A DNA stretch of 64,000 nt from Escherichia coli (GTDB taxonomy: Bacteria > Pseudomonadota > Gammaproteobacteria > Enterobacterales > Enterobacteriaceae), in NCBI RefSeq assembly GCF_016026235.1, contig NZ_CP065613.1; one strand, written 5' to 3'. The position numbers were made by a program. Shown in pieces: positions 51,801-54,800 of this stretch. How positions within the stretch are numbered: position 1 is the first letter of the stretch; every line of letters starts with the position of its first letter.

Positions 51801-54800
51801 TGCCTTCAGCGAGGCAAACTGCGCATCCATCCACACATCACTGAAGCTCTGCATCCGGAAATAATCGCCCCACTCACCAAGCTCAGTGGCCGACATTTCC
51901 GACAGCATCCGCCGCCAGTCTGCCCGCCGGAACTCCCGGGCAAGCCGCATGACAAACTGCATTTCCCGCGTCAGGACTTTTCCGGCGTCAGCGCCTCATG
52001 ATCATCATCCCCGGCATTCTCAATGGTCCCCATACCGCTCAGCGACAGAACCCTCTCCGCCCCGCGCCCAGCGCATCATACGACCATGTTGTCATAATGG
52101 ATGCGCAAAGCGTCTCAACATCCTGAGACTGCTCAGCATTCCACAGTGAGCGGGAAACCAGCCAGGCATTGATATCCATTCCCATACGCAGAAAAGCAAT
52201 CTGTCGTTCAGCCTCCGGCAGTTCTCCCTCCTGTGCATCAAACTTTGCCGTTCGCTGCTGAACAAACGTCAGATATTCAATTCTCTGCAGCCCGGACAGC
52301 TCACTGAGCACCACGGACTGTTTTTCATAATTAAACGTATCCTGTTTCAGAAACATCATGTTCTCCGGATGCAAAAAGCCCCGGATAACCGGGGCAATGA
52401 TGAGTATCGTCCTGTTATGGTGCGCTGACGGTCACCGCAGCCACTGCCACAAACTCTCCGTCAGAGGTCATGCCCACGATGCTGACACTGCCCTGCTTCA
52501 CGCCTTTCACCGTGGCCACAAGCCCGCTCAGGGTCACCGAAGCAGTCTGAGGATCTGACGAATGCACACTGATCGCTTTGTCACTGGCCCCGTCAGGTTT
52601 TACTGTAAAGGTCAGTGTGGTGGTTGCTCCCGCTTTGACACTGACAGATGCCGGTGCCACCGTCAGTCCGGTAACACCCACGGTTTCAGCGCCCTCCTCT
52701 GCCAGATACGGACGCCCCACACCGCTGATTTTTACAGTACGGGTCATCACCTCTTTTGAGGTAATGGTTTTACCCAGTGAACTCAGCCAGCCACGGAAAA
52801 CATCAACCGTACCGTTGGGGTATTTGATACGAAACGCGCAGACTTCACCGGAATCGAACAACTGAACCAGTTTTTTCTGCCCGCTGTCACCCGGACGCCA
52901 GGCCAGCGTCGCCAAAGTATCACCGACGGATTTCTGCCCCTGGGTTGTCGTTTTCCAGTCTGCATCTTCATCATCGAGATAAGTGTCATCTTCTGCATCA
53001 GCGGTCATTTCGCCAGGTTGCAGATCCTTCACCATCGCAAGACGCAGCCAGTCAGTGTCCGACAAAGGGTTCGCAAACGCATCGCCCTTGCCGGTGTACA
53101 TCCAGAACGTCGTTCCCGCACCTTTCGTTTTTGCCAGTGGATTTGGTGTGGTCATTGCCACCTCCTTAATTCGTGTACGTGATCTGGTACGTGATTTCCG
53201 CCATCGCCCAGGTGGCCATCTCATTATCACGTTGATAGTTAAAACCGAGTGGGTTCATGGTGTCGATGAGTCCGGAAAGTGCCGGTACATCATTCAGGGC
53301 CGGGAAAATGGTGCTCTCCATCCACATATCCAGCTCTGAATCCGGTGCCTGTGCCCGGATGAAGACAGCAATATGCAGAACAGCCTGCCAGTCATCTTCA
53401 TCCGTCATTTTTCCGGTGTACTGAGCATCACTCAGCCACACCGCCACGGCAGGCAGTTCCTGCGCATCAACAAATGCCGGAAGCCCGTCAAAAAACGTGG
53501 CGCTGTCTCCACACTGTTCCCGAAGGCGTGCCAGTACGACCTGGCGGATCTGTGTATGTCGGTTCATCGGGTCAGCCATAACCTCAGTTGTTGTTTCAGT
53601 GCATACCCCAGCTGTTTCGGCATTTCCGCAGCAATGATGCGGTCGCGGGCATCTTCAAATGCCTGTGTCAGCGGTCCGGACAGCGGGATTTTCACCACAT
53701 CAATGGGGTAACGATTTTTGCCGTCAATACGCCGCATCACATGCCAGCGACCATTCGCCAGTTGCTGAATAAACGCATCCCGGAAAAGGTATTTCCCCAC
53801 TTTCAGTACGCTGCCACGATGACGTGAGTTGCTGCCATGCCGGGAGCGGGCCAGTCTGACCTGTGCGGTACCCAGCTTAATGGCGGGCAGGTTACCCCGG
53901 TTAACACGCATGCGGGCATACATTTTTCCTGAGGGGCTGGCTTTAAGCAGCCTGACACGCTCCCTGACCGTTTTCAGGGGAATACCTTTCACCTGGTTAT
54001 CCCCGGCAACGGTATTCTGCGCAACCTGCCGTGTGGCGACAGAAATAATCTTTGCCGCCACACGGTTTACCGCCCATGCGCTGGCCTGTGGCACCATGCG
54101 GGTATCGAGGCTGTTCAGATTACGGATGGCATTCTCAAGCCCCTTCATCCCACACCTCTTTACTCAATAAAGATCATTGGTTTACCGTTAAAGCGTTCAT
54201 GCCGTGTGACCGTCCATTGTTGTCCGTCATAAACAACGCGGTCCCCGCGCCGTGGGCGGTATCCCGAAGAAAACACCACCAGAGAGACCGCCGGTCCGGA
54301 CAGAGCGTTCAGCTCTGCCAGAGTTTCTCCCGGGAGCACAGGCATATAAACATCATTAATCGAGGCCATCTTTCCCATCTTTCTGACCGTGATCGCATCC
54401 ATACGCGCTGCCAGCCGGGAAAAGGGATCAGACATTGAGTTTTACCGGCACTTCTTCTGCACCAGCTCCGGCATCTGCCCAGACAACCCCGACCAGCGGA
54501 TCAGAGCCGCTGTTAGTCAGCTGAACTTTTCCGGACTTCAGAAAAACCTTCTTACCCGTTTTCATGTCATCCGTTTTCAGCTTAGGCAGCATAAACACAC
54601 CTTCGGTCAGGCCGTCGCCTGTTTCACCCTGTGGAATATCGGTCAGCGCCACCGCAAAAACATCACCCACCTGCACCAGATCTCCGCTGCTGATGGCTGC
54701 ACTGGCAACAATCGCCACCGTTTTCCCTTCTTCTACAAAATTCTTTGCCATAACTGTCTCCGCACAGCCCCGTTCAGGGGCTGATTTCAGGTACAAAAAA

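What the first reader, a model, noticed from the sequence alone, without database searches (positions are those of the whole stretch)
51960..52100. G/T tail chaperone region: internal frameshift in G
The G N-terminus is in one frame and its conserved C-terminal part is in another, switching at a coding-strand G4 run (plus-strand 52060..52063). The T segment follows in the -1 frame, as expected for a programmed G-T frameshift. Without repairing the G4 run, no G or G-T product can be made.
Basis: partly seen in the sequence, partly recalled or inferred. Interest (0 to 1): 0.35.

Follow-up and report, generated by a model that had tools for sequence, protein, structure and literature searches.

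The report
Broken tail-chaperone gene G in prophage
One base is missing from a run of five G's in the tail-assembly chaperone gene G of a lambda-like prophage, which breaks the gene; this is an ordinary lesion (or an assembly error), not a new recoding signal.

Summary
On the minus strand, between the tail tube gene V and the tape measure gene H, gene G starts at 52356. It reads 99 native codons and reaches a GGGG run at 52060..52063. It then reads 6 wrong codons and stops at 52041..52039. The last 29 codons of G lie in the -1 frame (52060..51971). T follows in a further -1 frame, behind an intact slippery site G_GAA_AAG (51983..51977), which is homologous to lambda's G_GGA_AAG.

The frame break is not a normal feature:
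- All 13 relatives not selected for the defect have GGGGG and an uninterrupted 128-aa G.
- The intact protein is seen on at least 1000 contigs, the truncated one on 3-4.
- RefSeq already marks the identical lesion in E. coli CFSAN029787 as a "frameshifted" pseudogene.

The nearest relative is the same prophage at the same chromosomal site. It differs from the window over 31 kb by only 2 substitutions, one IS element and five 1-nt homopolymer contractions. All five lie inside a 13-kb head-tail module that occurs twice in that relative's genome. This pattern favours a consensus or polishing error (about 0.6) over a real slippage mutation (about 0.35). Either way the finding is ordinary and of low interest.

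The parts
52415..53155 (-). Major tail (tube) protein gene V, 246 aa, intact. It lies immediately upstream of G.
   Evidence: ORF list and sequence. The equivalent CDS is annotated 'phage tail tube protein' in L001, L002 and L009.
52039..52356 (-). Gene G as written. The ATG is at 52356 (an alternative ATG is at 52359). It encodes 99 native codons and 6 out-of-frame codons (RRGFCR), then a premature TGA at 52041..52039.
   Evidence: Pfam PF06894 Phage_TAC_2, E = 3.5e-34, covers only profile positions 1-101 of 126. RefSeq marks the identical sequence in CFSAN029787 as 'gpG, frameshifted'.
52060..52063 (-). GGGG run (CCCC on the plus strand), where one G is missing. Relatives have GGGGG.
51971..52060 (-). 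C-terminal 29 codons of G plus the stop, in the -1 frame relative to the N-terminal part: AERVLSLSGMGTIENAGDDDHEALTPEKS*.
   Evidence: Three-frame translation. Identical to the C-terminus of the intact 128-aa G. Aligns with lambda G 'AENVVYRLSGM...'.
51977..51983 (-). Candidate slippery heptamer G_GAA_AAG for the programmed -1 G-to-T shift. It is intact.
   Evidence: It sits at the position homologous to lambda G_GGA_AAG. It is the only shift-prone motif (A_AAG) in the 24-nt overlap between the T-frame upstream stop (51998..51996) and the G stop (51973..51971). It is invariant in 19 of 19 loci.
51633..51976 (-). T segment, in the -1 frame of the G C-terminus. RefSeq annotates it as a 109-aa stand-alone CDS from the internal ATG at 51962.
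   Evidence: Pfam PF06223 Phage_tail_T, E = 2.1e-14. The junction ...GKVLTREMQFVMRLAREF aligns with lambda GKVFDGELSFALKLAREM.
48621..51661 (-). Tape measure gene H. It is also broken by a 1-nt contraction (G5 to G4) at 48818..48821.
54838..56932 (-). ClpP-like protease / major capsid fusion gene. Contractions at 55559..55563 (G6 to G5) and 56197..56200 (A5 to A4) split it into three ORFs.
61038..61042 (-). Fifth 1-nt contraction (G6 to G5), in the DUF1441 (small-terminase-like) gene.

Best explanation
The region is the standard lambda-type tail assembly chaperone pair G / G-T of an mEp460/cdtI-like prophage, with an unprogrammed 1-nt contraction of a G5 run inside G.

**Normal mechanism (inferred from lambda)**
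- G is translated to its stop.
- A few percent of ribosomes slip -1 at G_GAA_AAG, three codons before the stop, and make the G-T fusion.
- G and the G domain of G-T coat the tape measure protein. The T domain recruits the tube protein.

**In the window**
Ribosomes terminate at a premature TGA 55 nt upstream of the slip site, so neither G nor G-T is made at useful levels.

**Origin**
The missing G is most probably not in the organism's DNA. It looks like a homopolymer under-call left in the assembly. It is one of five such contractions, all inside a 13-kb head-tail module that exists in two 99.9%-identical copies in the nearest relative. Consensus calling and read polishing are least reliable in a repeat of that kind.
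For: **Shown**
- Gene order V-G-T-H, with Pfam PF06894 and PF06223 hits.
- End-to-end alignment of the repaired G-T with lambda G-T, E = 9e-42.
- The heptamer is at the lambda-homologous position and invariant in 19 of 19 loci.
- The run is G5 in 13 of 13 loci not selected for the defect and in 90 of 91 matching E. coli complete genomes.
- Intact G is seen on at least 1000 contigs, the truncated product on 3-4.

**Evidence on origin**
- The same prophage at the same site in GCA_900449985.1 (L011, L021) differs from window 32756-64000 by 2 substitutions, 1 IS element and five -1 contractions of runs of 5-6 bases. There are no expansions.
- All five contractions lie within 48479-61649, the stretch duplicated in that genome as L020.
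- There are 0 contractions in 101 runs of at least 5 bases across 23 kb of chromosome, against 5 in 67 in the module (Fisher p = 0.009).
- Other long-read assemblies show the same and many more contractions in this module: L001 has 10 in 5.5 kb and L004 has 23 in 12 kb. Several are at the same sites.
- False deletions at runs of 4-5 bases are the dominant error of long-read assemblies (PMC12007338).
Against: - No reads are available, so the sequencing technology of the window is unknown.
- The duplication of the module is shown only for the nearest relative, not for the window's own genome.
- The G4 allele is the only indel in 7.6 kb of a Logan contig (L007), and one of only two indels in 8.8 kb of L005. 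The same contraction therefore probably exists as a real allele somewhere.
- For G/C runs alone, the contrast between chromosome and module is not significant (0 of 10 against 4 of 16, p = 0.14).
- The host is a Shigella/EIEC-like genome (ipaH gene, IS elements), where real prophage decay is common.
Confidence: 0.6

Rival explanations
1. The missing G is real. Replication slippage in the G5 run inactivated G, as one of several lesions in a decaying, tail-less prophage of a Shigella/EIEC-like host.
For: - Four other frameshifts lie in the tape measure, capsid and DUF1441 genes of the same prophage, while 37 kb of chromosomal genes are all intact.
- The same G4 allele is present in six independent sequences. 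One is a clean-looking Logan contig in which it is the only indel.
- RefSeq treats the identical lesion as a pseudogene.
- IS1 and ipaH in the window indicate a pseudogene-rich lineage.
Against: - Against the nearest relative there are 5 indels and only 2 substitutions in 31 kb. In wild-type E. coli, indels arise roughly ten times less often than substitutions (my own knowledge of mutation-accumulation studies, not a tool result).
- All five changes are contractions.
- None falls in the 12 kb of equally unselected prophage DNA outside the duplicated module.
- The nearest relative has G5 and intact G, H and capsid genes.
- The truncated product is almost absent from the very large body of short-read Shigella and E. 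coli assemblies.
Confidence: 0.35
2. The G4 allele is tolerated or used. Ribosomes slip -1 on G_GGG in front of the rare codons CGG and AGA and restore the exact wild-type G sequence (...GAGAERVL...). Enough G, and after a second slip enough G-T, is then made.
For: - The P-site tRNA-Gly can re-pair perfectly on the four G's, and the next two zero-frame codons are rare Arg codons (sequence).
- Unprogrammed -1 suppression of 1-bp deletions at X_XXN tetramers before rare Arg codons reaches about 1% in E. coli (PMC10861913).
- 'Savior indel' precedents exist (PMC5009743).
Against: - Relatives have G5.
- There is no stimulatory structure 3' of the run. The fold is less stable than shuffled controls, z = +1.43.
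- G is needed in about 30-fold excess over G-T (PMC5009743). A yield of about 1% for G, and about 0.03% for G-T, should not support assembly.
- The prophage carries four other breaks as written.
Confidence: 0.03
3. The two-frame structure of G is a normal, conserved feature of this G family, that is, a second programmed shift.
For: None beyond the sequence itself.
Against: G5 and an uninterrupted 128-129-aa G are found in phages mEp460 and cdtI, in 13 of 13 unselected loci and in 90 of 91 matching genomes.
Confidence: 0.01

Closest known systems
Bacteriophage lambda gpG / gpGT tail assembly chaperones, made by programmed -1 frameshift at G_GGA_AAG (Levin, Hendrix and Casjens 1993; Xu, Hendrix and Duda 2004, 2013, 2014, as cited in PMC5009743)
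   Same: - Gene order V-G-T-H.
- Pfam PF06894 plus PF06223.
- 33% identity over the whole G-T fusion, E = 9e-42.
- T has no frame of its own upstream. It is open for only 5 codons before the slip site.
- The slip site is at the homologous position, three codons before the G stop.
   Different: - The heptamer is G_GAA_AAG. The A-site AAG-to-AAA slip is kept, but P-site re-pairing GAA-to-GGA is imperfect.
- In the window, G is interrupted 76 nt upstream of the heptamer by the missing G.
Intact G (WP_000478927.1) and T (WP_001161009.1) of mEp460/cdtI-like E. coli and Shigella prophages
   Same: The DNA is identical over 821 of 822 nt. The T protein and the heptamer are identical.
   Different: The window has GGGG instead of GGGGG, so the G ORF is broken.
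RefSeq pseudogene AA102_RS00050 'gpG, frameshifted' in EIEC strain CFSAN029787 (NZ_CP011416.1)
   Same: An 821 of 821 nt identical G-T stretch with the same G4 run, already annotated as frameshifted.
   Different: - It sits in a different prophage mosaic, with lambda-type head genes.
- There are 44 SNPs in the flanks.
- That record has 8 further 1-nt deletions in its tape measure gene.
Gene-fragmenting homopolymer deletions in long-read assemblies (for example the Kastor study, PMC12007338)
   Same: - -1 contractions of runs of 5-6 bases.
- Deletions only.
- Many indels per substitution.
- The indels break otherwise conserved genes.
   Different: - Here the errors would be confined to one duplicated 13-kb module rather than spread over the genome.
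- Read data to prove this are not available.

Membership tests
Lambda-type tail assembly chaperone G / G-T (programmed -1 frameshift) | Two overlapping ORFs located between the major tail protein gene and the tape measure gene | tested here: met
   V is at 52415..53155, G/T at 51633..52356 and H starts at 51661.
Lambda-type tail assembly chaperone G / G-T (programmed -1 frameshift) | Sequence homology of the upstream ORF to gpG and of the downstream ORF to gpT | tested here: met
   PF06894 E = 1.2e-39 (repaired) or 3.5e-34 (as written). PF06223 E = 2.1e-14. BLASTP against lambda G-T gives E = 9e-42.
Lambda-type tail assembly chaperone G / G-T (programmed -1 frameshift) | The downstream ORF is in the -1 frame, overlaps the end of G and has no independent upstream coding capacity | tested here: met
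   The T frame is -1 of the G C-terminal frame. Its upstream stop at 51998..51996 is only 5 codons before the heptamer.
Lambda-type tail assembly chaperone G / G-T (programmed -1 frameshift) | Canonical X_XXY_YYZ slippery heptamer in the overlap | tested here: inconclusive
   The heptamer is G_GAA_AAG at 51983..51977. It keeps the shift-prone A_AAG (PMC5009743) and sits at the position of lambda's G_GGA_AAG. It is not strictly X_XXY_YYZ. It is invariant in 19 of 19 loci.
Lambda-type tail assembly chaperone G / G-T (programmed -1 frameshift) | Uninterrupted G reading frame from the start codon to the slip site | tested here: not met
   The frame is broken at the G4 run 52060..52063, with a premature TGA at 52041..52039. 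It is intact in relatives.
Lambda-type tail assembly chaperone G / G-T (programmed -1 frameshift) | A G-T fusion protein is actually produced at a few percent of G | not testable with these tools
   This needs a western blot, mass spectrometry or a frameshift reporter.
Assembly artefact (homopolymer under-call) | -1 change in a homopolymer, accompanied by other such changes and few substitutions relative to a near-identical genome | tested here: met
   There are five contractions of runs of 5-6 bases against 2 SNPs in 31 kb, compared with L011 and L021.
Assembly artefact (homopolymer under-call) | Errors concentrated where consensus or polishing is weakest, that is, in long near-identical repeats | tested here: inconclusive
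   All five lie in 48479..61649, which is duplicated at 99.9% in the nearest relative's genome (L020 and L021). The window's own genome could not be inspected.
Assembly artefact (homopolymer under-call) | Raw reads disagree with the assembled run length | not testable with these tools
   No read data are available.
Genuine prophage pseudogene | The lesion is shared by descent with the closest relatives or is common in the lineage | tested here: not met
   The nearest relative has G5. The truncated product is on 3-4 contigs against at least 1000 for the intact one. The G4 carriers have different head modules.
Genuine prophage pseudogene | Other inactivating lesions in the same element, while host genes stay intact | tested here: met
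   The tape measure, capsid (twice) and DUF1441 genes are broken. The chromosomal genes in 1..37000 are intact. This is equally expected under the artefact reading.

The most novel reading that the evidence does not exclude
The G4 allele is a real, recurrent, leaky variant. A -1 P-site slip on G_GGG before the rare CGG and AGA codons rebuilds the wild-type G sequence at about the percent level. Tail-chaperone supply, and hence prophage tail production, would then be throttled rather than abolished, through two ribosomal frameshifts in series within one small gene.
Probability: 0.03. Interest if true: 0.45.

Novelty: already known. Interest (0 to 1): 0.08.

Why it matters
It matters little biologically. 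G/G-T frameshifting is textbook, and a 1-nt homopolymer break in a prophage gene is routine. RefSeq already flags the identical sequence as 'frameshifted'.

The practical value is as a quality flag. Five homopolymer contractions are confined to a duplicated prophage module, next to a near-identical genome in which all five genes are intact. The 'pseudogenes' of this prophage should therefore not be counted as evidence of prophage decay until reads confirm them.

A minor point is that this widespread G-T family uses G_GAA_AAG rather than a canonical X_XXY_YYZ heptamer.

Tried and rejected
- **Identifying the window's source genome.** It is not CFSAN029787, which has 44 SNPs and 8 indels in the flanks. 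It is not any of L004-L007. It is not in the E. coli complete-genome set, where the best chromosomal match is 99.1%. The exact J protein is found only in GCA_900449985.1, which is near-identical but not the same sequence. The sequencing technology therefore remains unknown.
- **Alternative start codons.** Exact look-ups of the truncated G with the MMFLK and MHPEN starts found nothing.
- **Stimulatory RNA structure.** None was found 3' of the G4 run (z = +1.43) or 3' of the heptamer (z = -0.15).
- **Gene conversion or chimeric assembly from the paralogous copy.** L020 has G5 at the G site. It shares only the A4 state at 56197 with the window, and the window follows L021 at nearly all paralog-specific SNPs. 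There is no support for this as the source of the G lesion.
- **Literature search by accession numbers.** It showed only that CFSAN029787 is an O96:H19 EIEC strain. It gave nothing on the other assemblies or on run ERR5961568.
- **Transcriptional slippage.** I rejected it from my own knowledge: a run of four G's is far shorter than the runs known to cause RNA polymerase slippage.

Full report
**What is there**

The finding lies in the late operon of a lambdoid prophage read on the minus strand. Its parts are:
- the tube protein gene V (52415..53155);
- a G-like ORF starting at 52356;
- a T-like ORF (51633..51962);
- the tape measure gene H, starting at 51661.

The G-T stretch (window 51600-52420) matches 1849 records of the E. 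coli complete-genome set and 17 phage records of the mEp460/cdtI type. There the genes are annotated as tail assembly chaperone G, tail assembly protein T, tape measure and tube protein.

**Checking the observation**

On the coding strand, 52067..52055 reads GCGC GGGG CGGAG. The G4 run is exactly at 52060..52063.
- From the ATG at 52356 the frame gives 99 residues of G (...SYDALGAG). It then gives RRGFCR and a TGA at 52041..52039.
- The -1 frame from 52060 reads AERVLSLSGMGTIENAGDDDHEALTPEKS and stops at 51973..51971.
- Eight E. coli genomes match the 821-nt stretch at 821 of 822 positions. The only difference is one extra G at this run. Their G is an uninterrupted 128-aa protein, WP_000478927.1.
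- Pfam PF06894 covers profile positions 1-101 in the product as written and 1-121 after adding one G.

**The programmed G-T site**

- The T frame is -1 relative to the G C-terminal frame. It is closed by a TGA at 51998..51996, five codons before the heptamer.
- Any shift into T must therefore happen in the 24 nt before the G stop.
- That stretch contains G_GAA_AAG (51983..51977). It aligns with lambda's G_GGA_AAG, and the -1 products align: GKVLTREMQFVMRLAREF here against GKVFDGELSFALKLAREM in lambda.
- The repaired G-T fusion aligns with lambda G-T over its full length, E = 9e-42. It carries PF06894 and PF06223.
- The heptamer is invariant in all 19 loci examined.
- It retains the A_AAG slip known to be highly shift-prone in E. 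coli (PMC5009743). Its P-site re-pairing (GAA to GGA) is imperfect. That is my inference from the sequence.
- No unusual RNA structure follows the heptamer.

The mechanism comes from lambda, as summarised in PMC5009743. G and the G part of G-T bind the tape measure protein. The T part binds the tube protein. The roughly 30:1 ratio of G to G-T is critical for tail assembly.

**Is the frame break normal?**

No.
- Thirteen loci were fetched for reasons unrelated to the defect (L002, L003, L009, L011-L017, L019-L021). All of them have G5.
- With an 80-nt probe, 90 of 91 matching E. coli genomes have G5. Only CFSAN029787 has G4.
- The intact protein is recorded on at least 1000 contigs. The exact 105-aa truncated product is on 3-4.
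- RefSeq annotates the identical sequence in CFSAN029787 as 'gpG, frameshifted'.

**Real mutation or assembly error?**

The window is not any of the fetched records. It is Shigella/EIEC-like, with chromosomal identity to E. coli of about 99%, an IS1 copy and an ipaH gene next to the prophage.

Its closest relative is an NCTC assembly, GCA_900449985.1. That genome carries the same prophage at the same site, next to ipaH, dinI, yecD and aspS. Over window 32756-64000 the two differ by:
- 2 substitutions;
- one IS element;
- five 1-nt deletions in the window.

The five deletions are at 48818 (tape measure), 52060 (G), 55559 and 56197 (protease-capsid fusion) and 61038 (DUF1441). Each is a contraction of a run of 5 or 6 identical bases, and each breaks a gene that is intact in the relative.

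All five lie within 48479..61649. That head-tail module is present twice, at 99.9% identity, in the relative's genome (L020 and L021). Nothing comparable occurs outside the module:
- 0 of 101 runs of at least 5 bases are contracted in 23 kb of chromosome, against 5 of 67 in the module (p = 0.009). For G/C runs alone the figures are 0 of 10 against 4 of 16 (p = 0.14).
- The 12 kb of prophage DNA outside the module has no indels.

Other long-read assemblies of this module are riddled with the same type of contraction. L001 has 10 in 5.5 kb and L004 has 23 in 12 kb, partly at the same sites. False deletions at runs of 4-5 bases are the main error class of long-read assemblies (PMC12007338).

Three features are what a consensus or polishing failure in a long repeat would produce:
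- an excess of indels over substitutions;
- deletions only;
- confinement to a long repeat.

They are unlikely for neutral decay over so short a divergence. I therefore rate an artefact at about 0.6.

Several points argue the other way:
- The G4 allele is the only indel in 7.6 kb of a Logan contig (L007).
- It is one of only two indels in 8.8 kb of L005.
- The host lineage is prone to pseudogenes.
- No reads are available.

A real slippage mutation therefore stays at about 0.35.

**Residual novel reading**

The missing base could be compensated by a -1 slip of tRNA-Gly on G_GGG ahead of the rare CGG and AGA codons. That would recreate the exact wild-type sequence. Unprogrammed suppression of this kind reaches about 1% in E. 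coli (PMC10861913).

There is no stimulatory structure and no conservation of G4. The second, roughly 3% shift needed for G-T makes useful yields implausible. I give this reading about 0.03.

**Verdict**

The feature is a known kind of lesion in a textbook gene pair, and the identical sequence is already annotated as frameshifted in RefSeq. In this window it is more likely an assembly error than biology. Interest is low.

Noticed in passing
window 48818-48821, 55559-55563, 56197-56200, 61038-61042: Four further 1-nt homopolymer contractions break the tape measure, protease-capsid fusion (twice) and DUF1441 genes of the same prophage. All are full length in the near-identical relative L011/L021.
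   Followed up: yes
window 48479-61649; L020 and L021 (GCA_900449985.1): The head-tail module of this prophage occurs twice, at about 99.9% identity, in the nearest relative's genome. The second copy (L020) carries its own set of homopolymer length differences.
   Followed up: partly
window 51977-51983 (minus strand): The G-T slippery site of this widespread mEp460/cdtI-type family is G_GAA_AAG, not a canonical X_XXY_YYZ heptamer. It is invariant in 19 of 19 loci. RefSeq annotates T as a stand-alone CDS and does not annotate a G-T join.
   Followed up: partly
window 38108-39859 (+): An intact 583-aa ipaH-type T3SS effector E3 ligase gene (LRR_TTSS plus NEL domains) lies directly beside the tail-fibre end of the prophage. 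This marks the host as Shigella/EIEC-like.
   Followed up: partly
window 7999-8767: An IS1 copy is inserted between pphA and yebY, relative to E. coli ABWA45.
   Followed up: partly
window 62284-62287; L021 13734-14998: An IS3-family element interrupts the KilA-N region in the relative L021 but is absent from the window.
   Followed up: no
L001 (NZ_CP011416.1 1591-8411): CFSAN029787 has ten 1-nt homopolymer deletions within 5.5 kb at the very start of its chromosome record. This suggests poor consensus at the ends of the original contig.
   Followed up: partly
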